Shown here: positions 2,947-18,521 of the stretch, piece after piece | Position numbering within the stretch: position 1 is the first letter of the stretch | Layout of the letters: every line of letters begins with the position of its first letter | Source of the DNA: Myxococcales bacterium | GTDB taxonomy: Bacteria > Myxococcota_A > UBA9042 | NCBI GenBank assembly: GCA_009692425.1 | Contig: SHZF01000004.1 | Span: 10,175 to 74,174, forward strand | Direction: 5' to 3' | DNA length: 64,000 nucleotides | The notes under the pieces: model-generated | Database searches by the model: none | What the model was told of the DNA's origin: nothing | What the model saw: only the letters and a program-made list of their open reading frames with translations | Made by a program: the position numbers and the translations under genes

Positions 2947-3044
2947 GGGCGACCTCGCTGGGAACCGGCAGACGCGCGTATGAGGGCGTCGAAAGCGGGC
3001 TTGCGTGCTGCAACGCTACTGCGCGGTGCGCGCGCGAACAAGGA

Positions 3045-3881: not shown

Positions 3882-4848
3882 CCGGCGCCGTGACCGGGGC
3901 CTCGCGGGCAGCCGGCCACGCGCAGCCGCGCCACAGCACCCACCCGGCCCACGCCGCGAGAGGGAGGCTGATGAGTTGAGACGTGGACAGCAGGCCGCCC
4001 AGCCACAGGCCGCGGTCGTCGGCGCGCAGGAATTCGACGCCGAACCGGAACACTGCGTACGACAACATGAACCAGAAGAACACCTCGCCGTCGAAGCGGG
4101 CGCCCTTCTTGTAGCGAGCCCGACACACCAAGAAGATCACCGCGCAAGCCATGGCTTCGTAGAGCTGCGTGGCATGGACGGGCAGGCTGGCCCGGGCGAG
4201 GTCGGACAGGCGGTGTTCGGCGAGGTGGTGGTCCCAGGCCGGCGAGTGGCGCGGGAATGCGAGGCCGAAGGGGCCATCGGTGACCCGACCGAAGCAGCAG
4301 CCGGCGAGGACGCAGCCGGTGCGGCCGAACACGAGGCCCAGCGCGATCGCCCACGCGGCAATGTCGGCAAAGCGCCACACCGGCACCCGGCGGCGGCGCA
4401 GGAACCACAGCCCGGTCGGCACCGCGAGCAGGAAGCCGCCGTAGTAGGCATAGCCGCCGTACCATATCTTGACCACGCGCAGGCAGTCGCGATGCTGGCG
4501 GCACAGCCCGCTGGCGGCCTCGCACCAGTCGCCCAGGCCGGCGTCGAGGCACTGCGCGTCTGCGGCGCACTTCATGCCGTGGCCGAGCGCGAGCGCGGGC
4601 ACGGCCAAGGGGTCGGTGCAGAGGTGGACGTAGTCCCAGAATTGGCCGTCGGCGACAATGTGCAGCGCGCGCGCACCGACCAGGCCGCACGCCAGCATTA
4701 GCAGGCCGCAATCCAAGATGGCATTGCCGTCGAGTCCGACGCGCATTCCTTCGGCGTGGGCCCACAAGATCGCGAGCGTGAAGCCGACCATCAGCAGCGT
4801 AAAGTACGCTGGCAATACGGTGATGCCGAGGTCGAACGAAGGATGCAT
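3850..4848 (-). CDS. lgt: Prolipoprotein diacylglyceryl transferase Lgt. It carries a ~50 aa Cys-rich insertion before the W-x-GG-x-x-x-GG motif.
   Basis: MHPSFDLGITVLP start found at 4848-4846. Motifs IWYGGYAYYGG, GRTGCVLAGCCFG, HATQLYE, FLRADDRG. The 722-aa track ORF 3850..6018 continues upstream in-frame by chance, but that part is Arg-rich garbage and overlaps lspA. Confidence 0.82.
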   Translation of the reverse strand: MHPSFDLGITVLPAYFTLLMVGFTLAILWAHAEGMRVGLDGNAILDCGLLMLACGLVGARALHIVADGQFWDYVHLCTDPLAVPALALGHGMKCAADAQCLDAGLGDWCEAASGLCRQHRDCLRVVKIWYGGYAYYGGFLLAVPTGLWFLRRRRVPVWRFADIAAWAIALGLVFGRTGCVLAGCCFGRVTDGPFGLAFPRHSPAWDHHLAEHRLSDLARASLPVHATQLYEAMACAVIFLVCRARYKKGARFDGEVFFWFMLSYAVFRFGVEFLRADDRGLWLGGLLSTSQLISLPLAAWAGWVLWRGCAWPAAREAPVTAPVVKGEPHGIP

Positions 4849-4853
4849 CGACG

Positions 4854-5837
4854 TCAGCGCCCGGCGGGAGGTGCGACGGCGCTTGCGTCGACCGGCCGCT
4901 TGGCGAGGACCATCTCGAGCGCAATCGCGATGACCCCGGCCGTGATGCCGATGTCGGCGACGTTGTAGACGGGCCAGCCATAGACGCGCTCGGCCCCGAC
5001 GACGAAGTTGTAGACGAAGTCGACGACGACGTGGAAGCGCAGGCGATCGACGAGGTTGCCCAGGGCTCCGCCGAGAATCGCGGCGAGGGCCCAGGACGAC
5101 CAGGCAGTGCCCATGCGCCCCTGCCACAGCGTCCAGCCCATGGCGAGGCTGGCGACCAGTGAGATCACGACGAAAAGCACGTGACGGAAACCAGCTGGTG
5201 CGGTCGCGAGGAAGCTCCAGGCGGCGCCAGGATTCTCGGCATACACATAGGAGAAGTAGCCGTCGATCACCGAAATGGTGCGTTCTCGCAGCAGGTACGT
5301 CACCCCGGGCTCGCGCGGCGCGGTCGGGTCGGCGACGGTGCCGCGCGTCTGCACCGTGTGTGCGTCGAACAGGGACTGCACCGCCGCGGCGTCGACCCGC
5401 CACGCCTTTGCGGCGACCTCGGCGAGCGACTGCCCGACGTCCTGTTGGCGGACCCAGGCGCGGCGCGGCGCCGGAAAGCCAGAGCCCTGCAACGCGGTCA
5501 GGTCGAGCCCGACATCTTCGGCCTGGACCGCGCTGCTGGCGGCACGGCCCGCCCACTTGTGAGCCCGCACGACGAGACCGTTGCGCACCGCAGCGGCAAA
5601 TTCGCCAGCGGAGACGCCGCGCCGGGCGAACGCAGCAGCCACGGTGTGGTCCTCCGGTTGGGCGCCGGCGGGGACGGCGAGCGGGTGGACGACGTTGGCG
5701 AGCGCCTCGATGGCCCACTGCTTGGACCACAGATCGAGGCCCAGGGTCAGCGCGACGCAGGCGAACAGCAGGGTGCGGGCAGGCGGTGGCGACGACATCG
5801 AGACTCCTGCCCAGCGTGCGCGGCGCAGTCGGTTCAC
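4854..5837 (-). CDS. lspA: Lipoprotein signal peptidase II (LspA). It is unusually long at 327 aa, with a ~150 aa insertion between conserved N- and C-terminal blocks. A later start (e.g. Met14, 5798) is possible.
   Basis: LDLWSKQWA near the N-terminus. GGALGNLVDRLRFHVVVDFVYNF...WPVYNVADIGITAGVIAIAL near the C-terminus, the signal peptidase II catalytic Asp blocks. The stop at 4854 lies 6 nt before the lgt start. Confidence 0.78.
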   Translation of the reverse strand: MNRLRRARWAGVSMSSPPPARTLLFACVALTLGLDLWSKQWAIEALANVVHPLAVPAGAQPEDHTVAAAFARRGVSAGEFAAAVRNGLVVRAHKWAGRAASSAVQAEDVGLDLTALQGSGFPAPRRAWVRQQDVGQSLAEVAAKAWRVDAAAVQSLFDAHTVQTRGTVADPTAPREPGVTYLLRERTISVIDGYFSYVYAENPGAAWSFLATAPAGFRHVLFVVISLVASLAMGWTLWQGRMGTAWSSWALAAILGGALGNLVDRLRFHVVVDFVYNFVVGAERVYGWPVYNVADIGITAGVIAIALEMVLAKRPVDASAVAPPAGR

Positions 5838-6178: not shown

Positions 6179-7030
6179 GTGACACGCGCCTCCCTCGATA
6201 CGGGCAGTCCTTGCCACCATGCAGGCGACGGCCCCCACTGCGTCCTGTGCGGCGCGAACGCAGCCGGCCAGCGGGTCCCAGCCGAGAACGCGCCGATTGC
6301 GGTGGATGCTGCCGTGCGCGGAGCCCTCGACGGTGGAGCGACGGCCATCGTGCTGCGCGGTGGCGACCTGCTGCAGCGCCCCGACGCGCTCGACATGCTG
6401 GCCCGGGCGACGCAGTTCGGGGCACGCGACATCGAAGTGTGGACGGCGGGCCGGGCCTTGGCGCGGGCCGGCGCGGCCGAGGCAGTGCGGGCGGCCGGCG
6501 TGACTCGTGTCGCCATCCCCCTGCACGGCGACACGGCGGCGGCCCACGATTGGGTGGTGGGGCAGGCAGGTGCCTTCCAGCAAGCGCTCGCGGCGCTGAA
6601 GCGGGCGCGCGCTGCCGGTCTGCGCACGACGGTGCTCGCGTCGGTCGTGCGTCCGACGTACCGCCAGTTAGGCGGACTCGTGCAGAAGGCGCTGGCGCTG
6701 CAGGTCGATGGTTTCCGCTTCATCCGGGTCGATGGGACGGAGCGCGAGCGCAATCCCCTGCTCGCGCCGCCGGCGCTGGCGGGTCCGTGGGTGGCGAGCG
6801 CTGTCGTGCGAGCCGAGGCCGCACGCCGGCGAGTCGCCATCGAGGGGTTGCCTGCGTGCGTGCTCGGAACTGCCGCCGCGCACATCGAAACGGGCCTCAG
6901 CGGCTCCGGCGAGCAGGGGCCGCCGTGCGCCACCTGCACATGGCGCGCGCGCTGTGCCGGCATGCCGCCGCTTGCCGTGGTCGCGCACGGGTGGACCGCA
7001 ATCGAAGCCCGCCGGGATGTGCCGCACTGA
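6179..7030 (+). CDS. Radical-SAM-like protein with a noncanonical Cys spacing (C-x8-C-x2-C instead of CxxxCxxC) and a Cys-rich C-terminus; GTG start.
   Basis: SPCHHAGDGPHCVLCG at the N-terminus. IVLRGGDLLQRPD resembles the GGEPLL(R)xD SAM-binding block of the MoaA/PqqE type. C-terminal CVLG...CATCTWRARC. Strong GC3 bias in this frame supports coding. Confidence 0.55.
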   Translation: MTRASLDTGSPCHHAGDGPHCVLCGANAAGQRVPAENAPIAVDAAVRGALDGGATAIVLRGGDLLQRPDALDMLARATQFGARDIEVWTAGRALARAGAAEAVRAAGVTRVAIPLHGDTAAAHDWVVGQAGAFQQALAALKRARAAGLRTTVLASVVRPTYRQLGGLVQKALALQVDGFRFIRVDGTERERNPLLAPPALAGPWVASAVVRAEAARRRVAIEGLPACVLGTAAAHIETGLSGSGEQGPPCATCTWRARCAGMPPLAVVAHGWTAIEARRDVPH

Positions 7031-7274: not shown

Positions 7275-9281
7275 ATGACGAGCGTCTCGCCGCCACAACC
7301 TCCGCTGCCGGGCGACTCGGCCTCGGGCAGCATCGATATCGCGGCCCTGGTGGCTTCGGGCCTGCTCACGCGCGATGAAGCCCGCGCGCTGGAACACGCC
7401 CAGCAGGCCGAGACCGGTGCGGGCAGCCTCGTGCGAATGGAGGCTCTGCCGGAAACGGGAGGAGGCGGCGATCAGAAAGACGCGGTGAAGGAAACCGCGA
7501 TGAAGCACAAGCGCCACTGGGTACGCGTGACCCGTGTGTGCAACCAGCGCTGCACGTTCTGCCTGGATTCGATGAACCAGGACGGCTCGATGGTCGACGT
7601 CGAGTCGCTCAAGGCCTACATCCTGCTCGGCCGCCGCATGGGCCGCGAGCGCCTGATCCTGTCGGGCGGCGAAGCGAGCGTGCACCCGCAGTTCATCGAT
7701 CTGATCCGCTACGGCCGCCAGGTCGGCTATGACTGGGTGCAGACCGTCACCAACGGCATGATGTTCAGCTACAAGCGGTTCGCGCAGGCGGCGGCGGACG
7801 CGGGCCTCAACGAGGCGACGGTCTCGATGCACGGCCACACCGCCCACTTGCACGACAAGCTGACCGGCACGCCGGGCGCCTTCGTGACGGGCGTCAAGGG
7901 GATGCAGAACCTGCAGGCCACCGGCCAGGTCGTCGTCAACGTCGATGTCGTGATCAACAAGCAGAACTACAAGGCGCTGCCTGAGATCATCGAGTACTAC
8001 CACGACCGGCTGGGCATTCGGGAATTCGATCTGCTGCACATCATTCCGTTCGGCCGTGGCTTCGACGAGCACCGCCACTCGCTGTTTTTCGACCTCAACG
8101 ACGCCGTTCCGTATTTCCGCAAGGCTTTCGCGTGGTCGCAGAAGCCGGGCGTCTACCTGTGGACGAATCGCCTGCCGGTGACGTACCTGGAGGGCAACGA
8201 GAAGCTCATCCAGGACCCGCACAAGTTGTTCAGCGAGTTCGATGGCGGGCGGCACAATTTCGAGGGCTTCCTGCGGCGCGGGCTCAAGCCCGACTGCCAC
8301 GGCGAGCGCTGCGACTACTGCTTTCTCGATGGGCCGTGCCGCCAGACGATGTTCCCGTACCGCACGATGCTGGAGGCGGGCTCGTTCCCGGCCGTGCGAC
8401 TCGATGCGCGCCACGTCTGGCAGGGCACCGAGGCGCGCGCCAAGTTCGAGAGCCAGCGACCGCAGCGGGTGAAGCTGACCGCCCGCGACGCCGAAGAAGC
8501 TGCCGGCGCGTTGGATCGCCTGCCGTTTGCCGGCGCGGACGTCACCGTCGAGTTGGCGGCGGGCGCCGCGACGACCGCCCTGCACGGACTGCCCCAGGTG
8601 CGGCGCTTTGCTGTGGCCACCGTGGCCGACGCCGCCCGCATTCTGCAAGGCCCGGATGCCGTGCCCGCGCCGCACGAAGTCGAGGTCCGACTCGACCAGC
8701 CATTGGCCGCATGGCTGCTGGAACATGCCGAACTGGTGGCGCAATGGGGCAAGCGACTGGTGCTGACGCTGCGCACCCACGAATACCTGTCGGAGTCGCA
8801 GGCCACCGACCCGGACCCGGCGTCCTTGCGCGCACTCGCGGCGCTGGGGGCGCGCACGAAGAACGTGCCGAAATGCATGACGGGGACCGCAGCCGAGCCC
8901 CACGACCATCAGGTACTCGACGCCACCTTGCTCGACGGCGCCGGGCACCTCGACCTCGACCGCTACGTCAACCACTTCGTGGTCGAGGAGTACTTCGCCA
9001 AATCGCTGCGCTGCGGCCGCTGCGCCGAGGTCGATCGCTGCCACGGGGTGCACGTCAACTACGTGCGTAACCATGGCTTTGCGGTCATGGCCCCGCTCGA
9101 CGAAGCGGGCCTGCCGCTAGCGGACGCCGAGAGCTTCGACGACCTCGCGAAGAAGGTCGCCGATGCCACCGCCCGCCGCGAAAAGCGCGAGCGCGACAAG
9201 CTGGTCGGCATGCACCGGCCGCGGCTGCTGGAACCCACCGGTCTCGCGATCGGCCGGGTCGAAGAGACCGCAGGAACCTGA
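7275..9281 (+). CDS. Radical SAM enzyme, 668 aa, with a 75-aa N-terminal extension and a long C-terminal extension carrying SPASM-like Cys clusters. An alternative internal start at 7500 (MKHKRHW) has a good RBS.
   Basis: CNQRCTFC (CxxxCxxC), ILSGGEASVHPQF (GGE motif), HGHTAHLHDKLTGTPG, then CHGERCDYCFLDGPC and CGRCAEVDRCHG. The 6708 start of the track ORF is rejected, since the upstream part is an Arg-rich frame artefact. Codon GC3 bias begins at 7275. Confidence 0.85.
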   Translation: MTSVSPPQPPLPGDSASGSIDIAALVASGLLTRDEARALEHAQQAETGAGSLVRMEALPETGGGGDQKDAVKETAMKHKRHWVRVTRVCNQRCTFCLDSMNQDGSMVDVESLKAYILLGRRMGRERLILSGGEASVHPQFIDLIRYGRQVGYDWVQTVTNGMMFSYKRFAQAAADAGLNEATVSMHGHTAHLHDKLTGTPGAFVTGVKGMQNLQATGQVVVNVDVVINKQNYKALPEIIEYYHDRLGIREFDLLHIIPFGRGFDEHRHSLFFDLNDAVPYFRKAFAWSQKPGVYLWTNRLPVTYLEGNEKLIQDPHKLFSEFDGGRHNFEGFLRRGLKPDCHGERCDYCFLDGPCRQTMFPYRTMLEAGSFPAVRLDARHVWQGTEARAKFESQRPQRVKLTARDAEEAAGALDRLPFAGADVTVELAAGAATTALHGLPQVRRFAVATVADAARILQGPDAVPAPHEVEVRLDQPLAAWLLEHAELVAQWGKRLVLTLRTHEYLSESQATDPDPASLRALAALGARTKNVPKCMTGTAAEPHDHQVLDATLLDGAGHLDLDRYVNHFVVEEYFAKSLRCGRCAEVDRCHGVHVNYVRNHGFAVMAPLDEAGLPLADAESFDDLAKKVADATARREKRERDKLVGMHRPRLLEPTGLAIGRVEETAGT

Positions 9282-9312: not shown

Positions 9313-10539
9313 ATGGCGAACATCGGCTACATCCAGATGGTGCGCCACTGCAACCAGAACTGCGGGTTCTGCTCGAATCCGGAGACGCCGTTCTTCCATG
9401 ATCTCGAACAGGTCCACCGCATCGTCGACGACTTCGTGGTGCGCGGCTACTTCGGCGTGATCCTGACGGGCGGCGAGCCGACGTTGTCGCCCATCCTGCC
9501 CGATGCCATTCGCTATGCGCGCGCCCAGGGCCTGCACGTGCGCATGATCACGAACGGGCAGAAGCTCGCGGACCCGGCGTACTGCGACACGGTGTGGCAG
9601 GCGGGGCTGCAGCACGTGCACGTGAGCATCCACAGCCACAAGCACAAGCTCGAGGACTTCCTGACCGGCACGCCGGGCTCGCTGGACTGGGCCGAAAAGG
9701 CGTTGGCGAACCTCGCCAAGACCGACATCACCGTCAACATCAACACGGTGATCAACCGCTACAACTGCGACCACCTGCACGAGAACATCGAGTGGTTCAT
9801 CGAGCACTTCCCGTTCATCCGGCACTTCGTCTGGAACAATCTCGACCCCTCGATCGGCCGGGCGACGACGAACAACTACTTCACGCCCAAGCTCAAGGAC
9901 CTCGAAGTCTCGCTGCACAAGGCGATGCGGCGGCTGCACGAGACGGGGCGCTCCTTCCGCGTCGAGCGCGTGCCGCTGTGCTACATGACTGAGTTTGCCC
10001 ACTGTTCGACGGAGACGCGCAAAATCGTGAAGTCCGAGGAGCGCATCGTCCACTTCCTCGATCAAAAGGGCACCGTACGGCAGACGGAATGGGGGCACTT
10101 GTACGCCGACGTGTGCGAGACGTGCACATTGCGCTCGGTGTGTGGCGGCCTGTTCGATCGAGGCGATGCCTACGACCCTGCGGAGTTGAGTCCCGTGTTC
10201 GTCGATCCGCGGCCGATCGTGCAGCGCATCGTCGACGATCTGCAGTCAGACCCGGCGTGGCGGCGCGAGAAATTCAAGAACCTCGCGACCCTGCCGTCGC
10301 CGCATCAGGGCCAGCGCTACCGACCGGGCAAGGTGCAGGCGCCCACCGGCGAGCGCCTGGTCGAGCCGAGCCGTGACCCGAAAAAACACCAGGACCCGAC
10401 GGCGCGCGACTGGCACCCCGCGGACGATGAACAGGACGCCGATTTTGGCCTTTTGGTGCCGGCTGAGACCGAGTCTGAGCGCGCCGCCGCCCCTGGCCGC
10501 GTGCCCTTGGACCGGCTGGCGGCGGAACGGGCGCCTTGA
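9313..10539 (+). CDS. Radical SAM enzyme, 409 aa; paralog of the preceding gene; disordered ~90 aa C-terminal tail.
   Basis: MANIGYIQMVRHCNQNCGFC, ILTGGEPTL, HSHKHKLEDFLTGTPG (same H-x-H-x3-L-x2-LTGTPG block as the 7275 gene), CETCTLRSVCGG. Confidence 0.85.
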   Translation: MANIGYIQMVRHCNQNCGFCSNPETPFFHDLEQVHRIVDDFVVRGYFGVILTGGEPTLSPILPDAIRYARAQGLHVRMITNGQKLADPAYCDTVWQAGLQHVHVSIHSHKHKLEDFLTGTPGSLDWAEKALANLAKTDITVNINTVINRYNCDHLHENIEWFIEHFPFIRHFVWNNLDPSIGRATTNNYFTPKLKDLEVSLHKAMRRLHETGRSFRVERVPLCYMTEFAHCSTETRKIVKSEERIVHFLDQKGTVRQTEWGHLYADVCETCTLRSVCGGLFDRGDAYDPAELSPVFVDPRPIVQRIVDDLQSDPAWRREKFKNLATLPSPHQGQRYRPGKVQAPTGERLVEPSRDPKKHQDPTARDWHPADDEQDADFGLLVPAETESERAAAPGRVPLDRLAAERAP

Positions 10540-10680: not shown

Positions 10681-11199
10681 ATGAGCGAACATTCGATCGA
10701 GACCTTCGACGCCGCTGCGGGCCGCATGACGCTGGCGCTCGACACCGGGCTGTATCCGCTCGAGGTCGTCTACGGCGCGGCCTACATCTTCATCGACCGG
10801 GCGTTCGTGCTGCTCGACCGCGAAGGGGAATCGGGCCAAGGCCGCTACCTCGTGCACCTGCGCACCAAGCAGGGGGCCGACGAGACGAAGCTGCGCGCGC
10901 TGTCCGGCGAGTTCGGCAACGAGCTGCTGAGCCAGGCGTTGCGGCGCAAGGTGGTCAAGGCGAACCAGAAGATCATCGAGGAGATCACGACGCAGGCGAT
11001 CGCGGGGGCAGCAGGCGGCGCGTTGCCGACGGACTTCCTGGGCGGTGCCGACGACGGCCTCGACTTTCTCGATGACCCGCTCGGCATCGCGGTGCCGTGG
11101 GAAGAGAAGTTCAAGAAGAAGAAGCCCGATGCCGCCGACCCGACCAGTGCCGCGGCCATCGCCGACGCCGCCGGTGGTACGGGCGAGGCCAAGCCATGA
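10681..11199 (+). CDS. Hypothetical 172-aa protein: structured N-terminal ~110 aa, then an acidic/Gly-Ala-rich low-complexity tail. Candidate precursor or scaffold of the radical SAM cassette.
   Basis: Complete ORF with coding-like composition. Its stop TGA (11197-11199) overlaps the ATG (11196-11198) of the next ORF in an ATGA. Confidence 0.55.
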   Translation: MSEHSIETFDAAAGRMTLALDTGLYPLEVVYGAAYIFIDRAFVLLDREGESGQGRYLVHLRTKQGADETKLRALSGEFGNELLSQALRRKVVKANQKIIEEITTQAIAGAAGGALPTDFLGGADDGLDFLDDPLGIAVPWEEKFKKKKPDAADPTSAAAIADAAGGTGEAKP

Positions 11200-11429
11200 C
11201 GGCCGCCGTCACGGTCAAGCTGCACCGGACGCTCTACATGCAGCAGGCACTCCAGGAGGCGGGCCAGGCCTTTGCGGAACTCGCCTCGTTCGAGATCGTG
11301 CGCGACGGCGAGTACTACGCCGTGCACATCGCCGACATCGACGCCGAAGTCGAGGGTGATCTGGTCGCTGAGTTCTGCAACCACGCGCTGGTCCACACGT
11401 GGAACCGCAAACGGAAAACCGTCGCATGA
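11196..11429 (+). CDS. Hypothetical 77-aa protein (MTAAVTVKLHRTLYMQQALQEAGQAFAELASFEIVRDGEYYAVHIADIDAEVEGDLVAEFCNHALVHTWNRKRKTVA). Possible small partner/RRE-like or HxsD-like accessory protein.
   Basis: ATGA overlap at both ends (11196/11199 and 11426/11429). The track's longer ORF 11097..11429 has an Arg-rich N-terminus that I reject. Confidence 0.5.
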   Translation: MTAAVTVKLHRTLYMQQALQEAGQAFAELASFEIVRDGEYYAVHIADIDAEVEGDLVAEFCNHALVHTWNRKRKTVA

Positions 11430-12925
11430 GCTACCTCGCCGGCCTGAACCTCGACGATGTCCCCGCCGATCGGCTCGTGCCGTTCAATCACCGTGCCGTG
11501 GGCGACCGCGTGCTGGTGTCGAACGATCTCGGCGATCACGTGTTCCTAGCGCCCGGCGAGTTCCGTGCGTTCGTGACGGGCCAGGTTGCCGCCGACACCG
11601 ATCTGTACGGCAAGCTGGCAGCGGCCAACCTGTTCGCGGCCAGCATCGACGTGGGCAAGCAGGCGGAACGCTGGCGCCGCAAGAAGCAGTACCTGTTCGT
11701 CGGGCCGACGCTGCACGCGTTCGTGTTGACGCACCGCTGCAACCACGGTTGCCAGTACTGCCACTCGTCGATCGTCGGCATGACGCGCACCGACACCGAC
11801 ATGCCGATCGATGTCGCCGAGCGCGCGGTCGACCTCGCCTTCCAGACCACGAGCCCGAGCCTGACGATCGAGTTCCAGGGCGGCGAGCCGTTGGCGAACT
11901 GGGAGGTGCTGCAGCACATCGTCGAGTATGCGCGGCAGAAGAATGCGCTCGCCGGCAAGAACCTGTCGTTCGCCCTCGTCACGAACTTGTCGCTGATGGA
12001 CGAGGAGCGGCTCGACTACTTGCTCGACCGCAAGGTGCAGTTGTGCACGAGCCTCGACGGCCCGGCAGACCTGCACAACAAGGTGCGCATCTATAAGGAA
12101 GGCGACAGCCACGACCTCGTGATGAAATGGATGGCGCGCATCAACGAGCGCTACGTCGAGATGGGCCTCGACCCGAACTTGTACCGTGTCGAAGCCTTGC
12201 CGACGATCACGCGCCACGCGCTGGCGCGGCCCAAGGACGTGGTGGACCAGTACGTGGCATTGGGCTGTCGCGCGGTGTTCCTGCGCAAGCTCGATCCGTT
12301 CGGGTTTGCCGCCCGCACGGCCGGCACGCTCGGCTATTCGATGGACGAGTTCCTCACGTTCTACCAGGAGGCGGTGGACTACATCATCGAACTCAACCGG
12401 CGCGGCGTGCAGGTGATGGAACGGCACGCCGGGATCATGCTGTCGAAAATCCTCAACGACGACGAGCCGAACTACCTCGACCTGCGCACGCCGGGCGGCG
12501 CGGTGACAGGGCAGCTCGGCTATGCGCCCGACGGCGGCGTGTACTCGTCGGACGAGGGGCGCTTCGTGGCGGCGATGGGCGACGAGATGTTCCGCATCGG
12601 CACGGTGACGGACACGTACCACCAGATCGTGACGAACGCGCAGACCCGCGCGCTCGTGATGGCGGGACTCAACGACGGGCAGCCCGACTGCGTGACGTGC
12701 GTGTACAAGCCCTGGTGCGGCCAGCAGGTGGAGTACAACTACAAGACGCAGGGCTCGATCCACGGCCGGATGCGCGACTCGGTGTGGTGCCGCAAGCACA
12801 AGACGATCTTCGACTACCTGATGGGCAAGCTGGCCAAGGCGAACGCCGAAGACCTCGCGATGTTCCAGCGCTGGACCACGAACCGAACGCTGGATCATTT
12901 CATGCAGGAACGCGGAGCGTTGTAG
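11426..12925 (+). CDS. Radical SAM / SPASM-domain maturase of the AtsB/anSME-like class, 499 aa, with a ~100-aa N-terminal domain before the Cys triad.
   Basis: CNHGCQYCH (CxxxCxxC), IEFQGGEPL, C-terminal CVTCVYKPWCGQ ... WCRK (SPASM-type). The start MSYLAGLNL at 11426 overlaps the previous stop. Confidence 0.85.
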   Translation: MSYLAGLNLDDVPADRLVPFNHRAVGDRVLVSNDLGDHVFLAPGEFRAFVTGQVAADTDLYGKLAAANLFAASIDVGKQAERWRRKKQYLFVGPTLHAFVLTHRCNHGCQYCHSSIVGMTRTDTDMPIDVAERAVDLAFQTTSPSLTIEFQGGEPLANWEVLQHIVEYARQKNALAGKNLSFALVTNLSLMDEERLDYLLDRKVQLCTSLDGPADLHNKVRIYKEGDSHDLVMKWMARINERYVEMGLDPNLYRVEALPTITRHALARPKDVVDQYVALGCRAVFLRKLDPFGFAARTAGTLGYSMDEFLTFYQEAVDYIIELNRRGVQVMERHAGIMLSKILNDDEPNYLDLRTPGGAVTGQLGYAPDGGVYSSDEGRFVAAMGDEMFRIGTVTDTYHQIVTNAQTRALVMAGLNDGQPDCVTCVYKPWCGQQVEYNYKTQGSIHGRMRDSVWCRKHKTIFDYLMGKLAKANAEDLAMFQRWTTNRTLDHFMQERGAL

Positions 12926-13071
12926 ATGGCGGCACGCACGAGAAACACGCCGCTGCGGTTTGAACCGATGCGCGGGGGCGTGCTAGCATGGTGCGTTCAT
13001 GCAACGCGCAGTCGGCCGGGTACCTCCGCCCCGTCGGCATGACGCGGCCGGGCCTGCGGGAGCCCTTCGCC

Positions 13072-16000
13072 ATGCGCCGATTCTGCGACCGTGCCCGAAT
13101 CCGCCCGTGGCGCCTTGCGCTCGCGTGGCTGGCGTGGGCGGCTGCGTGCACCGAAGAACCCTTGCAGCAAGGGTCGCTCGACGCGATTGGCGCCGACACG
13201 CGCGGAACCGGCGCCGACGCGGCCCCAGACACCGCGACGGTCGATGCCAAGCTGACGGACGCGGCCAGCGACGCCAAGTCCGACGCCGCGAACGACACGA
13301 AAACCGACGAGAAGACGGACAGCGCGGGCCCCGACAGCGCGATCGACAACGGCGCCGACGGCCTGCTGGACACGGCGCCCACCGACGATGCGGACGGGAT
13401 CGTCGATGAATTCGCTGCCGATCAGGACGGACCAGACAGCGCTGGCACCGATGCGGACGCTGCGGGCACCGTGGACGCCGGCGCGGGAGACGCGCCTCCC
13501 AACGTCAAGAGCGTGCATTCGAATGCGTGCACCGCGGCCAGCGACTGCCTGATCCCATGTGCATCGGGCAACTGCGTGGCGGGCACGTGCAGCTATCAGC
13601 CCAAAGGCAAGGGCTGCGTGGCCGACCTCGGCGGCGGCAAGGTGGGCTGCTTCGGCCCCGGCGACACGAGCGACGACAAGCCCTGCCTCGTGTGCCAGCC
13701 GTTGGTGTCGAGTACGGCGCTGACGACGGCGCTGTGGGTGAATGGCCTCGACGGCGAGCCGGGACTGCAGTTCGCCGACACCGCGGGCGCCGGCATCGGC
13801 TGGGGATTCAGCGACAAGAAGTCGAAGTCGGGCGGCAAGTCGCTGTGGTTCGGCGACCCCAAGACAGGCAACTACGCGATAGGCAAGGCGGTCGGCGGCA
13901 CGGCGACCTTGCCGGAGACGAAGGTGCCGCAGTTCAGCGGCACGCAGCCCAAGGTCGCGTTCTGGCTGTGGCTCGACACCGAGGAGTTCGACGGCCACGA
14001 CGTGCTGACGCTCGGCGTGCTCGAAGGCGGAGCCACGAAGGTCCTGTGGACGTCGGACGCGATCAAGGGCACCACGGGTGGCGCATGGCAGCGCATCGAG
14101 GCCGAACTCGTGGGCTACGGTGGCAAGACGGTGGCGCTGCAGTTCGGCTTCGACTCAAAGGACGAGGTCGCCAACACGTTCAGTGGCCCCTTCCTCGACG
14201 ACGTGGCCGTGCTGTCGGGCTGCTGCGCCGGGGCCGCGGATTGCGACGACGGCAACGCGTGCAGCGACGACAGTTGCGCGGCGGGAGCGGGCGGCCTGCC
14301 CCTGTGCAGCCACGCCAAGAAGGCCGGGTGCTGCTCGACGTCGGGCGACTGCGACGACAAGGTGTTGTGCACGTTCGATCTGTGCTCCGGGCCGGGCGGC
14401 ACGTGCAGCCACAACGCAAAGCCCGGCTGTTGCCTGACCGACAACGGCTGCGACGATGGCAACGCGCTGACGATCGACAAGTGCGTGGCTTCGAAGTGCC
14501 TGATCATCGACACCGCGTGCAAGTCGGACGCCGACTGCAAGACGAACGATCCGTGCCAGAAGGGGTCGTGCCAGGCCGGAATCTGCGCGTTCCAATCGAC
14601 GTGCTGCATCGCCGACAGCGAGTGCGACGACTTCAACCCGTGCACGATCGACGGCTGCGACAAGGGCAAATGCGTCACCACGGCATCGACGGTGCCGGGC
14701 TGCTGCTCGCCCCAGCCACTTTTCAACCAGTTCGGCAGCAGCGACGAGGGCTGGACGTCGGGCCCGGCGTCGCCCCAAAACAACGACTGGCATTGGAAGG
14801 CGCTGCCGTCCGCAGTCAGCCCGCCGGGCGCCCTGCACTTTGGATTGAAAGACAAAGACATGGGGCTTACGGCCAGCCAGCCGCAGTCCAAGATCACGAC
14901 GGCGAGCCCGCCGATCACGCTGCTGCCCGGCAAGGAAGTGACGTTCAAACTCTGGTACATGTCGGACATGACGGCCGCCAGTGGCAACGTGCGGGTGTTC
15001 GCGGTGGTCGACGGCAAGGAGGTGACGTTCGGCTACCTGAGCCTGAACACGAGCAAGAAGTGGACGACGTTCGGCCCGTATGACCTCTCGCCGGCGATGG
15101 GCAAGACGATCCAGATCAAGCTGGAGATGACGCTGACACCCGTTGGCTCGGTCACGGGCACCGGGCTGTGGGTCGACGACTTCGAGGTGAATTCGACGTG
15201 TCAGGCCAAGAAGTGCGCGGCCTCGGGCACCTGCGGCATCGGTGCGATGCCATGCGTGGCCGGCGTGTGCACGGACGGTCAGTGCACGTACCCGAACGCC
15301 TGCTGCGTCACGAGTGCCGACTGCGCCGACCAGAACCTGTGCACAAGCGACGTGTGCGTGAACACGAAGTGCCAGTTCAACCCGATCGCGAAGTGCTGCA
15401 TGGGCAGCGGCGACTGTGCCGACGGCAACCCGTGCACGCAAGACATCTGCCCAGCGCCCGGCCAGATCTGCCAGTGGCCGCCGGTGCCCGGCTGCTGCCT
15501 GTCGTCGGTCGAATGCAATGACAGCAACGCGTGCACGAAGGACGGCTGCATCCTGAACAAGTGCGTCAACGAGAACACGTGCTGCAAGGTCGACAAGGAC
15601 TGCGACGACAGTGAGACAAAGTGCACGGTCGACAAGTGCGTGGCCCAGATCTGCACGCACACGTCGACGGGCGCGGCCGGTTGCTGCTCGCCGATCGTGT
15701 GGGAGAACGACTTCGATCAGGGCGACCTCAAGGGCATCAAGGTGCAGAACTCCGCTGGCGCCAAGGGCTGGAACCACTGGCCGAACGCGCAGTTGTCGAA
15801 GTCGGGCAAGGGCGTGCTGTACTATGGCGATCCCGCGGTCGGCAATTTCGACTTCAGCTTGTCGAGCGGCACGGCCAAGACGCTGGCGATCCAGTTGCCG
15901 GTGTCGACGCCGTCGCACATGACGTTCTGGCTCTACATGGACACCGAGCAGGGCCCGCCCTACGACTCGCTCGCCGTGCGCGTCTACGTCGATGGCGCCC

Positions 16001-16191
16001 AAAATCCGGTGTGGGAAAAGAACCAGAACGGCTACACGGTGCTGAAATGGACCGAGATCAAGATCGACCTCGCGAAGTGGGCCGGCAAGTCCATCGAGAT
16101 CGAGTTCTACTTCAACACGGTCGATTCGGTGGGCAACAGCGGCAAGGGCGTCTTCGTCGATGACCTGAAGGTCGTGACGGCGTGTCCATGA
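13072..16191 (+). CDS. Giant secreted lipoprotein, 1039 aa. It has a D/A/T-rich linker, then several MAM-like beta-sandwich modules separated by C-x-D-x-N-x-C-T-x-D-x-C cysteine-rich repeats.
   Basis: MRRFCDRARIRPWRLALAWLAWAAAC signal and lipobox. Repeats CDDGNACSDDSC, CDDKVLCTFDLC, CDDGNALTIDKC, CDDFNPCTIDGC, CADQNLCTSDVC, CADGNPCTQDIC, CNDSNACTKDGC. Modules with LWFGDP / FWLWLDTE / GPFLDDVAV...C and a C-terminal GKGVFVDDLKVVTAC (MAM-like ...DD..(V/I)...C ending). Confidence 0.85.
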   Translation: MRRFCDRARIRPWRLALAWLAWAAACTEEPLQQGSLDAIGADTRGTGADAAPDTATVDAKLTDAASDAKSDAANDTKTDEKTDSAGPDSAIDNGADGLLDTAPTDDADGIVDEFAADQDGPDSAGTDADAAGTVDAGAGDAPPNVKSVHSNACTAASDCLIPCASGNCVAGTCSYQPKGKGCVADLGGGKVGCFGPGDTSDDKPCLVCQPLVSSTALTTALWVNGLDGEPGLQFADTAGAGIGWGFSDKKSKSGGKSLWFGDPKTGNYAIGKAVGGTATLPETKVPQFSGTQPKVAFWLWLDTEEFDGHDVLTLGVLEGGATKVLWTSDAIKGTTGGAWQRIEAELVGYGGKTVALQFGFDSKDEVANTFSGPFLDDVAVLSGCCAGAADCDDGNACSDDSCAAGAGGLPLCSHAKKAGCCSTSGDCDDKVLCTFDLCSGPGGTCSHNAKPGCCLTDNGCDDGNALTIDKCVASKCLIIDTACKSDADCKTNDPCQKGSCQAGICAFQSTCCIADSECDDFNPCTIDGCDKGKCVTTASTVPGCCSPQPLFNQFGSSDEGWTSGPASPQNNDWHWKALPSAVSPPGALHFGLKDKDMGLTASQPQSKITTASPPITLLPGKEVTFKLWYMSDMTAASGNVRVFAVVDGKEVTFGYLSLNTSKKWTTFGPYDLSPAMGKTIQIKLEMTLTPVGSVTGTGLWVDDFEVNSTCQAKKCAASGTCGIGAMPCVAGVCTDGQCTYPNACCVTSADCADQNLCTSDVCVNTKCQFNPIAKCCMGSGDCADGNPCTQDICPAPGQICQWPPVPGCCLSSVECNDSNACTKDGCILNKCVNENTCCKVDKDCDDSETKCTVDKCVAQICTHTSTGAAGCCSPIVWENDFDQGDLKGIKVQNSAGAKGWNHWPNAQLSKSGKGVLYYGDPAVGNFDFSLSSGTAKTLAIQLPVSTPSHMTFWLYMDTEQGPPYDSLAVRVYVDGAQNPVWEKNQNGYTVLKWTEIKIDLAKWAGKSIEIEFYFNTVDSVGNSGKGVFVDDLKVVTACP

Positions 16192-18452
16192 GTGCACAGC
16201 CGATCGACGGCGGGATTTGCGGGGAACGCACGGCGCGGTCTGGGCCGGAGCGGGCGGCCCTGTGGAGCATGAGCGCGTGGGCGGCCATCGCGTTGTCCGT
16301 CGCGGCGTGCGGGGGCGAGGACTCGCCGAAGAAAGCCGACGCCGATGCTGCCAGCGACGGGGCGGGAGCAGGCGCCGAGACGGCCGACGATCTGGCTCGC
16401 GTGGCCGACATCGACGAACCCGACAGTGCGGCACGTAGTGATGCCGCGGGCACCGATCTGACTGTGAACGACGCCGCCCCCGCCGACGAGGCGACGCCCG
16501 ACGTGCCGCCGGACGTGCCGCTTGCCGACCTCGGTCAGGACGTCCCGACGCCGGTGGACATTGCGCAGTGTGCGACGGGCACCGACTGCGCCGGCCTCCT
16601 GAAGTTGCAGCCGTGCGAACAGGCCACCTGCGTTGCCGGCCAATGCAAGCCGGAGCCGAAACCGGACCAGTGCTGCACCGATGCCGACTGCAACGATCAG
16701 GGCGAGTGCGTGGCGGGCAAGTGCGACACGGGGGCGCATGCGTGCCTGTACACGCCGATCCCGAACTGCTGCAGCGGCAAGGTGACGCTGCTCAAGACCT
16801 CGCTTGAGGGCGCCCCGTTCGAAGACGTGAGCGCCCAGGAGTCGCCCCAGAACGGCAATGTCGCGTGGGGCGAATCGACCACGCGCGCCCACTCCGGCAA
16901 GAAGGCGCTGTACTTTGGCAACGCCTGCAAGACGTACGACAACAGCCTGAACGTGGCGAACGGTTGCAAGGTCGGCGGTGCGTCGACCCCGATCCAGTCG
17001 GCGCTCACGACGAAGGAGCACGCGCTGCCCAAAGACAAGAAGGCGCAGTTGCACTTCTGGCTGTGGCTCGACACGGAATCGCCGTATGCCGACACGCTGC
17101 CCAAGGGGACGTGTGCGACCCCGTGCGTGGCGGGCGCGGCGTGCATTCAGGTCAACGGTCAGTCGCAGTGCGTGCCGGAAAAGGATGTGCTGACCGTCAG
17201 CGTGCTGCAGGGCGAGACCGCGACGTCGGTGTTCTCGTCGCTGCAGATCGGCAAGTCGACGAAGGGACAGTGGCTGCACGTCGCGGTCGACCTGTCGAAG
17301 TGGGCCGGCCACTCGATCAAGGCGCAGTGGGCGTTCGCAACGGGTACGAACCTGAAGAACGGCTACGAGGGCATCTACCTCGACGACCTCGTGATCGAGA
17401 CGAACTGCACGGAAAAAGGCGCGTTCTGCGACGAAAAGGCGCCATGCCAGGATGACGCCAACGCGTGTACTCAGGACGTGTGCACGAAGTACGCCAACAA
17501 CGCGGGACTCGGCGTGTGCTTTGCCGACAAGAAGGTCGGTTGCTGCACGGTCGTGTCCGAGTGCGCGGACGGCAACGCGTGCACCCTCGACGCCTGCAAT
17601 GCAAGCCAATGCTCGTGGAAGCCGGACGCGACGAAGCCGGCATGCTGCAAGGCCGAAGTGCTGGCGCCGCTGGAGGACTTCGAATCCGGCACGCTCGACG
17701 TGTGGTCGGTGTTCGAGTCCAACTCGACCATCTCGAAGTGGCGGCTGCACCCGACCGGAGGCAACGCGGGCCAGGCCCTGTACTTCGGCACCGAAGGCCT
17801 CGACACTTACGCGGACCCGGCGCTCGGCAAGGACTTGGGACCCAAGGGCACGATCTGCATGGACAAGGTCAAGATCAAGCAGGGCTCGCTCCACGACCTC
17901 GTAACGTTCGACCTGCAGATGGAGACGGAGTGGACCGGCTTGCCTGCGACGACCTACAAGAATCCGCCGGTCGCTGGTGGCAAAAAATTCGACGCGCTGG
18001 CTGTCTCCGTGTACCACAACGGCACGTTTACTGAGGTGTGGTCGTCGGATGCGGTGCTCGGAACGACGGGGGGACAGTGGTTGCCGGTGACGGTCGCGCT
18101 CGACGCCTTTCAGGGCCAGACGGTGCAGTTGTGCTTCGCTTTCGACGCGGGCGACGGCGCGGTCAACGACAAGGCCGGCGTGCGACTCGACAACGTGCTG
18201 GTCAAGGTCGCATGCAGCAAAAAGCCCTGCTATTTCGCAACGGAATGCAAGGCACTGTCTTGTGGCACGTGCAAGGTGCCGATATGCGACGGGGCCGGTT
18301 GCCAGTGCGTTGCGGTGCCGGATTGCTGCACGGCGGCGCAGGACTGTGACGACGGCGAAACAAAGTGTACGATCGACAAATGCGGGGCCGACGGCAAGTG
18401 CGTGCACGAGCCAACGGGGTTCGCCGATTGCCCGAACGCGGGCGGCAAGTAG
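16188..18452 (+). CDS. Giant lipoprotein paralog 2 (~755 aa), with the same MAM-like plus Cys-rich repeat architecture. The start could be ATG 16188 (ATGA overlap with the upstream stop), GTG 16182 or ATG 16269.
   Basis: Signal MSAWAAIALSVAACGG. Motifs KALYFGNACKTYDNS, FWLWLDTESPYAD, YEGIYLDDLVIETNC, CADGNACTLDAC, CDDGETKCTIDKC. Confidence 0.8.
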   Translation: MSAQPIDGGICGERTARSGPERAALWSMSAWAAIALSVAACGGEDSPKKADADAASDGAGAGAETADDLARVADIDEPDSAARSDAAGTDLTVNDAAPADEATPDVPPDVPLADLGQDVPTPVDIAQCATGTDCAGLLKLQPCEQATCVAGQCKPEPKPDQCCTDADCNDQGECVAGKCDTGAHACLYTPIPNCCSGKVTLLKTSLEGAPFEDVSAQESPQNGNVAWGESTTRAHSGKKALYFGNACKTYDNSLNVANGCKVGGASTPIQSALTTKEHALPKDKKAQLHFWLWLDTESPYADTLPKGTCATPCVAGAACIQVNGQSQCVPEKDVLTVSVLQGETATSVFSSLQIGKSTKGQWLHVAVDLSKWAGHSIKAQWAFATGTNLKNGYEGIYLDDLVIETNCTEKGAFCDEKAPCQDDANACTQDVCTKYANNAGLGVCFADKKVGCCTVVSECADGNACTLDACNASQCSWKPDATKPACCKAEVLAPLEDFESGTLDVWSVFESNSTISKWRLHPTGGNAGQALYFGTEGLDTYADPALGKDLGPKGTICMDKVKIKQGSLHDLVTFDLQMETEWTGLPATTYKNPPVAGGKKFDALAVSVYHNGTFTEVWSSDAVLGTTGGQWLPVTVALDAFQGQTVQLCFAFDAGDGAVNDKAGVRLDNVLVKVACSKKPCYFATECKALSCGTCKVPICDGAGCQCVAVPDCCTAAQDCDDGETKCTIDKCGADGKCVHEPTGFADCPNAGGK

Positions 18453-18521
18453 GGGCCGAAGTGCTCGCCAGCGGGGATCGGGACCTCGCAGGCAGCCTCA
18501 GCGTGTGTGTGGAGGGATGTG

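What the first reader, a model, noticed from the sequence alone, without database searches (positions are those of the whole stretch)
10681..11429. Two small ORFs chained by ATGA overlaps to the third radical SAM gene
The stop of the 172-aa ORF (TGA 11197-11199) overlaps the ATG (11196) of a 77-aa ORF. The stop of that ORF (TGA 11427-11429) overlaps the ATG (11426) of the SPASM maturase. Two consecutive 4-nt overlaps indicate tight translational coupling and stoichiometric co-expression, which is typical of precursor / recognition-element / maturase triads.

The 172-aa protein has a structured N-terminal half and an acidic, Gly/Ala-rich tail (DFLGGADDGLDFLDDPLGIAVPWEEKFKKKK...). The 77-aa protein is compact and charged, the size of PqqD-like RRE or HxsD-like accessory proteins. 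Neither has an obvious signal peptide.
Basis: seen in the sequence. Interest (0 to 1): 0.7.

Follow-up and report, generated by a model that had tools for sequence, protein, structure and literature searches.

The report
HxsD and HxsD-like accessory gene pair
The two small overlapping genes are real and belong to two already-catalogued families of helper proteins (HxsD and HxsD-like) that sit in front of the radical-SAM enzyme HxsB in a little-studied variant of the His-Xaa-Ser peptide-maturation system; what is unusual here is that the peptide this machinery normally modifies is missing from the neighbourhood.

Summary
ORFs 10681-11199 (172 aa) and 11196-11429 (77 aa) are real genes joined by ATGA overlaps to the radical-SAM (rSAM) gene at 11426.

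They are not a precursor plus a PqqD-type recognition element (RRE). All three genes pass curated NCBIfam cut-offs:
- 172 aa: HxsD (TIGR03976)
- 77 aa: HxsD-like protein (NF038315)
- rSAM gene: HxsB (TIGR03978)

The order HxsD(long) → HxsD-like → HxsB recurs in most of 79 species-level loci (Myxococcota, Binatia, Thermodesulfobacteriota) and in Omnitrophota. There it accompanies an (HxS)n repeat precursor, HxsA4 (NF038313), and 0 to 8 extra rSAM genes.

The gene order is conserved; the ATGA overlaps are not.

The long HxsD carries a disordered tail with a motif kept across phyla, D[FY]LxDPLGI[AS]xPWEEK. The canonical 96-aa HxsD lacks it.

The window and 31 similar loci have no HxsA4 nearby.

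Best reading: a non-catalytic adaptor pair for HxsB and the HxsC-like enzymes, with the tail as a docking motif. Less likely, the tail is itself the substrate.

The component families are known. The architecture and the tail motif are undescribed in the literature I could search. Interest is moderate to low.

The parts
10681..11199 (+). Long-form HxsD (172 aa): HxsD domain, a Gly/Ala linker and a conserved C-terminal tail
   Evidence: TIGR03976 scores 52.6 bits against a cut-off of 50, over aa 20-110. The identical protein is named HxsD in NCBI, with a precomputed PF27806 hit. GC3 is 0.89. In the AF2 model aa 1-110 have pLDDT above 90 (beta-beta-alpha-beta-beta-alpha-alpha) and the tail has pLDDT 40-65.
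10738..11010 (+). HxsD domain proper (aa 20-110), with the 'LY' and 'EFxNELLxxxLR' signature
   Evidence: It aligns to TIGR03976 positions 1-87 of 90. Y25, N80, E81, L83, L87 and R88 are invariant in 119 homologues. These correspond to the LYW and LLNDYxLRE motifs mutated in E. coli HxsD (PMC13128918).
11062..11109 (+). Conserved linear motif in the disordered tail: DFLDDPLGIAVPWEEK (aa 128-143)
   Evidence: F129, L130, D132, P133, L134, G135, I136, P139 and W140 are invariant in 119 homologues. The motif is present in 66 of 79 distinct loci and looser in the Binatia-type loci. Forty-four distinct DNA versions encode the identical 14-mer with synonymous changes, so conservation is at the protein level. 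It is also present in Omnitrophota and in L086, and absent from the canonical 96-aa HxsD. pLDDT is about 50-55.
11196..11429 (+). HxsD-like protein (77 aa), a minimal HxsD-core paralogue
   Evidence: NF038315 scores 63.3 bits against a cut-off of 41. It matches 237 cluster representatives of 65-100 aa. Y14 is invariant, and A30, N62 and L65 are nearly so. The AF2 model has pLDDT 94.9 with a beta-alpha-beta-beta-alpha fold. It directly follows long HxsD in 76 of 79 loci.
11426..12925 (+). HxsB, radical SAM/SPASM maturase (499 aa)
   Evidence: TIGR03978 scores 502.5 bits against a cut-off of 370. The closest solved relative is CteB (5wgg), aligned over the rSAM core at 101-232 versus 103-238, which leaves an N-terminal domain of about 100 aa. 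It follows the HxsD pair in most loci.
11196..11199 (+). ATGA stop/start overlap between HxsD and HxsD-like
   Evidence: Seen directly in the sequence. The same junction type occurs in 31 of about 75 related loci, but in only about 4 of 32 loci with the window's architecture.
11426..11429 (+). ATGA stop/start overlap between HxsD-like and HxsB
   Evidence: Seen directly in the sequence. Overlaps of -4 or -8 nt occur in 30 of about 60 related loci.
9313..10539 (+). HxsC-like radical SAM protein (408 aa); accessory to the cassette and variable between loci
   Evidence: The best NCBIfam hit is HxsC (TIGR03977) at 98.5 bits, far below the 267.9 cut-off. Pfam Radical_SAM scores 70.4 bits. It is present in window-type loci and absent from the loci that have only the triad.
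7275..9281 (+). HxsC-like radical SAM protein with a long Cys-rich C-terminal domain (668 aa by the independent gene call)
   Evidence: The best hits are HxsC4 at 102 bits (cut-off 500) and HxsC at 85 bits (cut-off 268). The gene was called as 668 aa on another assembly. It is conserved in window-type loci.
6179..7030 (+). orf0: a divergent rSAM-like protein with a non-canonical CX8CX2C motif, first gene of the block
   Evidence: Pfam Radical_SAM scores 34.7 bits. The CxHPx(5-6)CPxC motif is conserved in many loci but lost in others.

Best explanation
The two ORFs are a paralogous pair of small non-catalytic proteins. One is a long, tail-bearing HxsD. The other is a minimal 'HxsD-like' protein. 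With the downstream rSAM/SPASM enzyme HxsB they form the conserved core triad of the HxsA4-type ('type 4') variant of the His-Xaa-Ser peptide-maturation system.

Shown:
- Family membership of all three genes.
- A shared HxsD core fold in both small proteins.
- Near-universal D -> D-like -> B gene order across phyla.
- Association of that triad with (HxS)n-repeat HxsA4 precursors and with a variable number (0 to 8) of further rSAM genes.

Inferred, by analogy with the characterised E. coli system, where HxsD binds HxsC and is required for HxsA processing:
- The pair acts as an adaptor or chaperone module, probably a heterodimer. It binds the rSAM enzymes (HxsB, and the HxsC-like enzymes encoded upstream) and helps present the repeat precursor.
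- The disordered tail motif of the long HxsD, D[FY]LxDPLGI[AS]xPWEEK, is most likely a docking peptide. The N-terminal domain of HxsB is the likeliest partner.

In this window, and in 31 other species-level loci with the same architecture, the precursor gene is not linked to the cassette. The substrate is therefore either encoded elsewhere in the genome or is not an HxsA4.
For: Family membership: NCBIfam hits above curated cut-offs for HxsD, HxsD_rel and HxsB. NCBI already names the identical 172-aa protein HxsD.

Shared signature and fold: both small proteins carry the signature. Both models share the beta-alpha-beta-beta-alpha core.

Gene order: the long HxsD is directly followed by HxsD-like in 76 of 79 loci, with HxsB next in most of them. 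The same D - D-like - B order, followed by HxsA4, occurs in Omnitrophota and in another metagenome contig.

Precursor: the (HGS)n-W peptides in related loci pass the NF038313 HxsA4 cut-off, at 119.8 and 76.5 bits against 55.

Tail motif: it is conserved at the protein level and predicted disordered. It is present whether or not HxsA4 or HxsC-like genes are linked.

Canonical system: HxsD binds HxsC, and mutations in its LYW and LLNDYxLRE motifs impair HxsA cleavage and abolish defence (PMC13128918).
Against: - No HxsA4 or any HxS-repeat ORF lies in the 64-kb window, or within +-10 kb in any of the 32 window-type loci. The substrate of this particular cassette is therefore unidentified.
- No protein-protein interaction was tested. 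The heterodimer and the docking role of the tail are both inferences.
- The upstream rSAM proteins fall far below the HxsC and HxsC4 cut-offs, so the analogy with the HxsC-HxsD complex may not transfer.
- Eleven loci lack an adjacent HxsB.
Confidence: 0.72

Rival explanations
1. The long HxsD would be a self-contained precursor. Its HxsD domain would act as a leader or chaperone, and the invariant tail motif (DFLDDPLGIAVPWEEK) would be the core peptide, modified by HxsB and perhaps by the HxsC-like enzymes. The 77-aa HxsD-like protein would be the helper.
For: - The motif is the most conserved part of the protein and is predicted disordered. It sits C-terminal to a folded domain, as the core does in precursors with large leader domains.
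- Loci that contain only D, D-like and HxsB have no other conserved candidate substrate.
- None of the 32 window-type loci has a linked HxsA4.
- HxsB is the most constant neighbour of the motif, including in L083 and L084, which lack HxsD-like.
Against: - The motif is equally conserved in loci where a bona fide HxsA4 precursor directly follows HxsB or flanks the rSAM block. It is therefore not a replacement for a precursor.
- The protein is a homologue of canonical HxsD, which is an accessory factor and not a substrate.
- The tail contains no His-Xaa-Ser.
- The Trp is replaced by Phe or Leu in several lineages.
Confidence: 0.13
2. The 77-aa protein is a PqqD-like RiPP recognition element (RRE) that binds a leader peptide for the SPASM maturase.
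For: It has the size and position typical of stand-alone RREs, immediately upstream of an rSAM/SPASM gene.
Against: - It has no PF05402 hit, or any other Pfam hit.
- It passes the HxsD_rel cut-off instead.
- HxsB has its own N-terminal domain of about 100 aa, in the position where its closest solved relative CteB also has an N-terminal extension. I recall that extension being CteB's RRE (plus my own knowledge).
Confidence: 0.03
3. The cassette in this genome is a decaying remnant. The precursor has been lost, and the small ORFs and rSAM genes no longer have a function.
For: - No precursor lies within 64 kb.
- orf0 shows loss of its cysteine motif in several lineages.
- The number of rSAM genes differs widely between loci.
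Against: - All genes are intact, with a strong coding signal.
- The same precursor-less architecture is kept in 32 species-level loci at 53-78% protein identity.
- The tail motif is kept through many synonymous changes. That indicates ongoing purifying selection.
Confidence: 0.07

Closest known systems
Canonical HXS anti-phage system, HxsD-HxsB-HxsC-HxsA (E. coli; Li et al., Nat Commun 2026, PMC13128918). A real example is on Aeromonas salmonicida plasmid NC_009349.1.
   Same: - A small HxsD encoded immediately upstream of, and overlapping, hxsB.
- The HxsB enzyme family: the window protein passes TIGR03978 and is 34-36% identical to the plasmid HxsBs.
- The HxsD signature motifs (LY...; EFxNxLL..LR) and fold core.
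- No signal peptide on the helper proteins.
   Different: - Two HxsD paralogues here instead of one.
- The long one carries a 60-aa disordered tail with an invariant motif. The canonical 96-aa HxsD lacks it.
- No true HxsC. The upstream rSAMs score 85-98 bits against a cut-off of 268.
- No HxsA, with its peptidoglycan-binding domain and five HxS repeats, in the window.
- The rSAM genes lie upstream of D rather than after B.
- The hosts are Myxococcota and Binatia MAGs rather than Pseudomonadota. The published survey, which started from HxsA, found 99.7% of systems in Pseudomonadota.
- The location next to lgt/lspA is conserved, rather than a mobile defence-island context.
HxsA4-type ('type 4') His-Xaa-Ser systems, as defined only by the NCBIfam models NF038313 (HxsA4), NF038315 (HxsD-like) and NF038332 (HxsC4). 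I found no paper using these names.
   Same: - HxsD with the DPLGI..PWEEK tail, followed by HxsD-like, followed by HxsB. This matches Omnitrophota L085, L086 and the Binatia-type loci.
- Additional non-HxsC rSAM genes.
   Different: - The defining precursor HxsA4 (leader 'LPxIKKxIxxFLxSEEGKISK' plus (HxS)n plus a terminal W, Y or C) is missing from the window and from all 32 loci of the same architecture.
- None of the rSAMs reaches the HxsC4 cut-off.
Precursor / RRE / rSAM-SPASM triads such as MftA-MftB-MftC and PqqA-PqqD-PqqE
   Same: Two small genes precede a SPASM-type radical-SAM enzyme and are tightly packed against it. A short, strongly conserved peptide motif lies next to the enzyme gene.
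   Different: - Neither small protein has a PqqD/RRE fold or a PF05402 hit.
- The larger 'precursor-like' protein is a folded accessory-family member.
- A separate repeat precursor exists in related loci.

Membership tests
HxsD (TIGR03976 / PF27806) | Profile score above the curated cut-off | tested here: met
   The 172-aa protein scores 52.6 bits against a cut-off of 50, just above it, over aa 20-110 and profile positions 1-87 of 90. A precomputed PF27806 hit is on record.
HxsD (TIGR03976 / PF27806) | Signature motifs LY(W) and LLNDYxLRE | tested here: met
   GLY25P and F78-G-N80-E-L-L-S-Q-A-L87-R88 are invariant or nearly so in 119 homologues. The motifs are defined in PMC13128918. Here they are variant forms, LYP and NELLSQALR.
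HxsD (TIGR03976 / PF27806) | Encoded next to hxsB in an Hxs cassette | tested here: met
   HxsB (TIGR03978, 502.5 bits) starts 230 nt downstream, separated only by the HxsD-like gene.
HxsD-like protein (NF038315) | Profile score above the curated cut-off | tested here: met
   The 77-aa protein scores 63.3 bits against a cut-off of 41. It scores only 18.1 bits against TIGR03976.
HxsD-like protein (NF038315) | Same core fold as HxsD | tested here: met
   The model has pLDDT 94.9 and a beta-alpha-beta-beta-alpha fold, matching the core of the HxsD model. The pairwise alignment gives 29% identity over 79 aa with the motifs in register.
HxsB (TIGR03978) | Profile score above the cut-off; rSAM CxxxCxxC with a SPASM-type C-terminal region | tested here: met
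   502.5 bits against a cut-off of 370, over the full-length profile 1-466. Pfam Radical_SAM and Fer4_12 both hit. CNHGCQYC is visible in the sequence.
Canonical HXS system (HxsABCD) | HxsA effector with His-Xaa-Ser repeats in the cassette | tested here: not met
   No ORF in any frame of the 64-kb window has 3 or more HxS within 30 aa. There are no CAYGGNWSN DNA repeats.
Canonical HXS system (HxsABCD) | HxsC (TIGR03977) adjacent to HxsB | tested here: not met
   The best HxsC scores are 98.5, 84.9 and 48 bits against a cut-off of 267.9. These genes lie upstream of hxsD, not after hxsB.
Canonical HXS system (HxsABCD) | Anti-phage function | not testable with these tools
   PADLOC 2023 gives only generic viperin-rSAM similarity. 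The conserved placement next to lgt/lspA in about 20 loci is not typical of a defence island, but that proves nothing.
HxsA4-type (type 4) Hxs system | HxsA4 precursor (NF038313) linked to the cassette | tested here: not met
   A leader HMM built from 122 HxsA4 N-termini recovers all 17 HxsA4 ORFs in the related loci (E <= 8e-5). It finds nothing in the window or in any window-type locus. tblastn with the leaders gives only noise.
HxsA4-type (type 4) Hxs system | The HxsD(tail motif) - HxsD-like - HxsB triad | tested here: met
   The same triad and tail motif occur in loci that do carry HxsA4: L005, L030, L043, L085, L086 and others.
PqqD-like RRE (PF05402) | Profile match | tested here: not met
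   Neither small protein has any Pfam hit at E <= 0.1, apart from a sub-threshold RdfA match.
PqqD-like RRE (PF05402) | Winged-helix fold (three-stranded sheet plus three helices) | tested here: not met
RiPP precursor peptide (for the 172-aa protein) | Core peptide covalently modified by the neighbouring maturase | not testable with these tools
   This needs mass spectrometry. The indirect evidence is mixed.

The most novel reading that the evidence does not exclude
In the clade of 32 species that shares the window's architecture, the Hxs machinery has no repeat precursor at all. Under this reading the invariant, disordered tail of the long HxsD (DFLDDPLGIAVPWEEK) is either itself the radical-SAM substrate, making the protein a fused chaperone and precursor, or a mimic of the HxsA4 leader (FLxSEEG versus FLDDPLG) that gates access to HxsB. 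Either would be a previously unrecognised way of organising an rSAM maturation system.
Probability: 0.13. Interest if true: 0.7.

Novelty: new member of a known kind. Interest (0 to 1): 0.35.

Why it matters
The His-Xaa-Ser system has been characterised experimentally only once, in E. coli in 2026. The role of HxsD there is still vague: it binds HxsC and is needed for HxsA processing.

This locus belongs to a much less studied lineage with these features:
- HxsD is duplicated into a long form and a minimal form.
- The long form carries a linear motif conserved across phyla.
- The number of radical-SAM enzymes ranges from one to about nine.
- In one large Myxococcota clade the precursor gene is unlinked.

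That gives testable handles on what HxsD proteins do: tail deletion, W140 mutants, pull-downs, and mass spectrometry of the tail peptide. It also shows that surveys starting from HxsA miss a sizeable set of Hxs-type loci outside the Pseudomonadota.

For the scan itself, the result is mainly a correct re-labelling. The two small ORFs are catalogued accessory proteins, not a new precursor/RRE pair.

Tried and rejected
1. PqqD/RRE identity of the 77-aa protein. Rejected on Pfam and on fold.
2. An HxsA or HxsA4 gene in the window. I tried a regex for HxS repeats in six frames, a DNA repeat pattern, tblastn with seven leaders, and a leader HMM run with --max on all ORFs of 25 aa or more. All were negative.
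3. The three Cys-rich MAM/choice-of-anchor-J proteins downstream (12988-22163) as substrates. They are not syntenic with the cassette in other loci.
4. A defence-system assignment through PADLOC. It gave only generic viperin-rSAM similarity.
5. A close structural relative of the HxsD fold in the PDB. None was found. The top hits are generic alpha/beta sandwiches such as RNAP L/Rpo11, aIF2alpha-C, Pcc1 and MscS-C.
6. orf0 as the counterpart of the unannotated 321-325-aa proteins in L085 and L086. No similarity.
7. P0152, a '6-stretch' hit to the HxsD-like profile. It is an FG-GAP/VCBS-type repeat protein and a false positive.
8. Similarity between the tail and the HxsA4 leader (FLxxxxG). It is too short to evaluate and is kept only as a hint.
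9. The promoter and terminator scan gave nothing decisive about operon boundaries.
10. Multimer structure prediction and a search of the rest of the source genome were not possible with the tools available.

Full report
**Observation**

The window is 69% GC. The stretch 10681-12925 holds three plus-strand ORFs in three different frames:
- 10681-11199 (172 aa)
- 11196-11429 (77 aa)
- 11426-12925 (499 aa)

ATGA stop/start overlaps sit at 11196-11199 and 11426-11429.

All three have the codon-position GC pattern of real genes, with GC3 of 0.89, 0.86 and 0.92. In the 77-aa frame, GC3 is only 0.58 upstream of 11196, so ATG 11196 is the likely start rather than the upstream GTG. Gene calls made independently on a 6-kb contig from another assembly give the same 172-aa and 77-aa products and the same overlaps.

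**Identity**

Against NCBIfam:
- The 172-aa protein passes the curated cut-off of TIGR03976, His-Xaa-Ser system protein HxsD (52.6 bits against 50, aa 20-110).
- The 77-aa protein passes NF038315, 'HxsD-like protein' (63.3 bits against 41).
- The 499-aa protein passes TIGR03978, HxsB (502.5 bits against 370).

Pfam has nothing for either small protein, and no PqqD/PF05402 hit. The identical 172-aa sequence is already in NCBI under the name HxsD, from a Myxococcales MAG.

The three rSAM-type genes upstream are 6179-7030, about 7275-9281, and 9313-10539. Their best matches are HxsC and HxsC4, but at 48-102 bits against cut-offs of 268 and 500. They are HxsC-like only in a loose sense.

**What is known about the family**

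The one experimental study (PMC13128918) describes HXS as an anti-phage system with the gene order HxsD-HxsB-HxsC-HxsA.
- HxsD binds HxsC.
- Mutations in the HxsD motifs LYW and LLNDYxLRE impair HxsA cleavage and abolish defence.

Its survey started from HxsA and found 99.7% of systems in Pseudomonadota. A real canonical locus on an Aeromonas plasmid has a single 96-aa HxsD that overlaps hxsB, followed by hxsC and hxsA.

**Structure and relationship of the two proteins**

The AF2 model of the 172-aa protein, built on a 119-sequence alignment, is confident for aa 1-110 (pLDDT above 90; beta-beta-alpha-beta-beta-alpha-alpha). It is poor for the tail, at pLDDT 40-65.

The 77-aa protein folds with pLDDT 94.9 as beta-alpha-beta-beta-alpha, which is the core of the same domain. 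The two align in register on the 'LY' and 'EFxNxxL' motifs.

The canonical HxsD has the same two C-terminal helices as the long form but stops at 96 aa.

**Comparative genomics**

A scan of one genome per species found 112 relatives, of which 79 loci were kept. All are MAGs, mostly Myxococcota, Binatia and Thermodesulfobacteriota. I annotated them with my own HMMs.

- The long HxsD is directly followed by HxsD-like in 76 of 79 loci. The exceptions are one truncated contig and two Anaeromyxobacter-like loci in which HxsB follows directly.
- HxsB follows the pair in most loci; 11 lack it.
- The number of HxsC-like rSAM genes nearby runs from 0 (for example L001, L004) through 1 or 2 plus orf0 (the window's architecture, 32 distinct loci) to about 5 (Binatia type).
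- Junctions vary. With approximate start picks, D->D-like is a -4 overlap in 31 of about 75 loci, and D-like->B is -4 or -8 in 30 of about 60. The window's closest relatives mostly have gaps of 9-60 nt. The overlaps are therefore an ordinary and non-conserved feature.

**The precursor**

About 15 related loci encode peptides of about 100-120 aa, made of a leader plus (His-Gly-Ser)15-25 plus a terminal Trp. They lie next to the rSAM block and pass NF038313, 'His-Xaa-Ser repeat protein HxsA4' (119.8 and 76.5 bits against 55).

HxsA4 homologues occur in several phyla. In an Omnitrophota genome (37% GC) and in another metagenome contig, the order is HxsD - HxsD-like - HxsB - HxsA4 - 5 to 8 rSAM genes.

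I found no paper that uses the names HxsA4, HxsC4 or HxsD-like.

HxsA4 leaders share the motif 'LPxIKKxIxxFLxSEEGKISK', usually followed by a hydrophobic segment.

In the window, no HxsA4 is detectable by repeats, by DNA pattern, by tblastn or by a leader HMM. That HMM recovers all 17 known copies in the related loci. None of the 32 window-type loci has one within +-10 kb.

**The tail**

The strongest conservation in the long HxsD lies outside the HxsD domain. F129, L130, D132, P133, L134, G135, I136, P139 and W140 are invariant in 119 homologues.
- The motif DFLDDPLGIAVPWE[ED][KR]F is near-invariant in Myxococcota-type loci. It is looser in Binatia-type loci, where Trp is sometimes Phe or Leu.
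- It recurs as DYLKDPLGIAIPWEEK in Omnitrophota and as DYTKDPLGISLPWEEK in L086.
- Forty-four distinct DNA versions encode the identical 14-mer, with synonymous variation at nearly every codon. Selection is therefore on the peptide.
- The canonical HxsD lacks it.
- The residues after about aa 148 of the window protein are not conserved.

The motif occurs with or without a linked HxsA4, with or without HxsC-like genes, and without HxsD-like in two loci. HxsB is its most constant neighbour. HxsB has an N-terminal domain of about 100 aa, in the position where its closest solved relative CteB also has an N-terminal extension. That this extension is CteB's RRE is my own knowledge, not a tool result.

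**Mechanism**

Shown: family membership, the shared fold, the conserved triad, and its association with HxsA4 and with variable rSAM sets.

Inferred: HxsD and HxsD-like form a non-catalytic adaptor, probably a heterodimer of paralogues, for HxsB and the HxsC-like enzymes. The tail acts as a docking peptide.

The alternative, that the tail is itself a substrate, is kept at about 0.13.
- It would explain the loci that contain only the triad and the loci without a precursor.
- It fits poorly with the equal conservation of the motif where a real precursor sits next to HxsB, and with the accessory role of canonical HxsD.

A decaying-remnant reading is unlikely, given the purifying selection across 32 species-level loci.

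**Context**

The Cys-rich MAM-like proteins downstream are not syntenic with the cassette elsewhere. lspA, lgt and cdsA lie divergently upstream in about 20 window-type loci. PADLOC offers no defence assignment. The promoter and terminator scan shows no internal plus-strand terminators but is not decisive.

**Verdict**

- The component families are already catalogued, so this is a new member of a known kind.
- The type-4 architecture, the cross-phylum tail motif and the clade without a linked precursor are undescribed in the literature I could search. They give the locus moderate specialist interest.

Noticed in passing
window 6179-7030 (+): orf0 is a weak Radical_SAM match (34.7 bits). It has a non-canonical CxHPx(5-6)CPxC (CX8CX2C) motif instead of CX3CX2C. 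The cysteines are conserved in many related loci but lost in about nine, so it may be a pseudo-enzyme.
   Followed up: partly
window 2101-5837 (-), and about 20 related loci: cdsA, lgt and lspA lie divergently upstream of the cassette in about 20 of 32 loci with the same architecture. The lspA here is 327 aa, with an N-terminal extension of about 180 aa before the Peptidase_A8 domain. I could not decide whether this adjacency is functional or simply inherited synteny.
   Followed up: partly
window 12988-22163 (+): Three large Cys-rich secreted-looking proteins (1067, 756 and 1218 aa), with InhA-like MAM / choice-of-anchor-J domains and CxxC-rich repeats, directly follow hxsB. They do not accompany the cassette in other loci.
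   Followed up: partly
L005 782-1099(-); L078 15666-16016(-); L085 10001-10363; L086 10001-10330; others: HxsA4 precursors consist of a conserved N-terminal 'LPxIKKxIxxFLxSEEGKISK', often a hydrophobic signal-like segment, then 15-25 HxS repeats (mostly HGS). The final residue is W in 46 of 118, Y in 19 and C in 11. Some loci carry two copies.
   Followed up: partly
Long-HxsD tails in L004, L049, L051, L053, L059, L062, L065, L073, L078, L081: One clade has a second conserved motif, 'PGDSGGF(K/Q/S)P', near the extreme C-terminus of the long HxsD. The window protein ends with a possibly degenerate version (AAGGTGEAKP).
   Followed up: no
L083 6265-8279; L084 10004-12042: Two Anaeromyxobacter-like loci have a long HxsD with the tail motif, followed directly by HxsB with no HxsD-like gene. 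The minimal paralogue is therefore dispensable in some lineages.
   Followed up: partly
L034, L042, L044, L045, L053, L056, L065, L073, L075, L078, L081: In these loci the HxsD/HxsD-like pair has no adjacent HxsB. In L078 and L081 the pair lies convergent to an HxsA4-orf0-rSAM-rSAM operon. The pair is the most constant unit of the system.
   Followed up: partly
L007, L016, L025, L034, L042, L047 (record titles): The GTDB species-representative records that carry these high-GC Myxococcota-type loci are titled Klebsiella pneumoniae or 'uncultured Enterobacteriaceae'. These MAG records are probably mislabelled.
   Followed up: no
window 7275-7487 (+): The first HxsC-like rSAM has a conserved N-terminal extension ('IDIxxLVxxGxLTRDEARALEH') ahead of the rSAM core, and a Cys-rich C-terminal half of about 350 aa with no Pfam match.
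   Followed up: no
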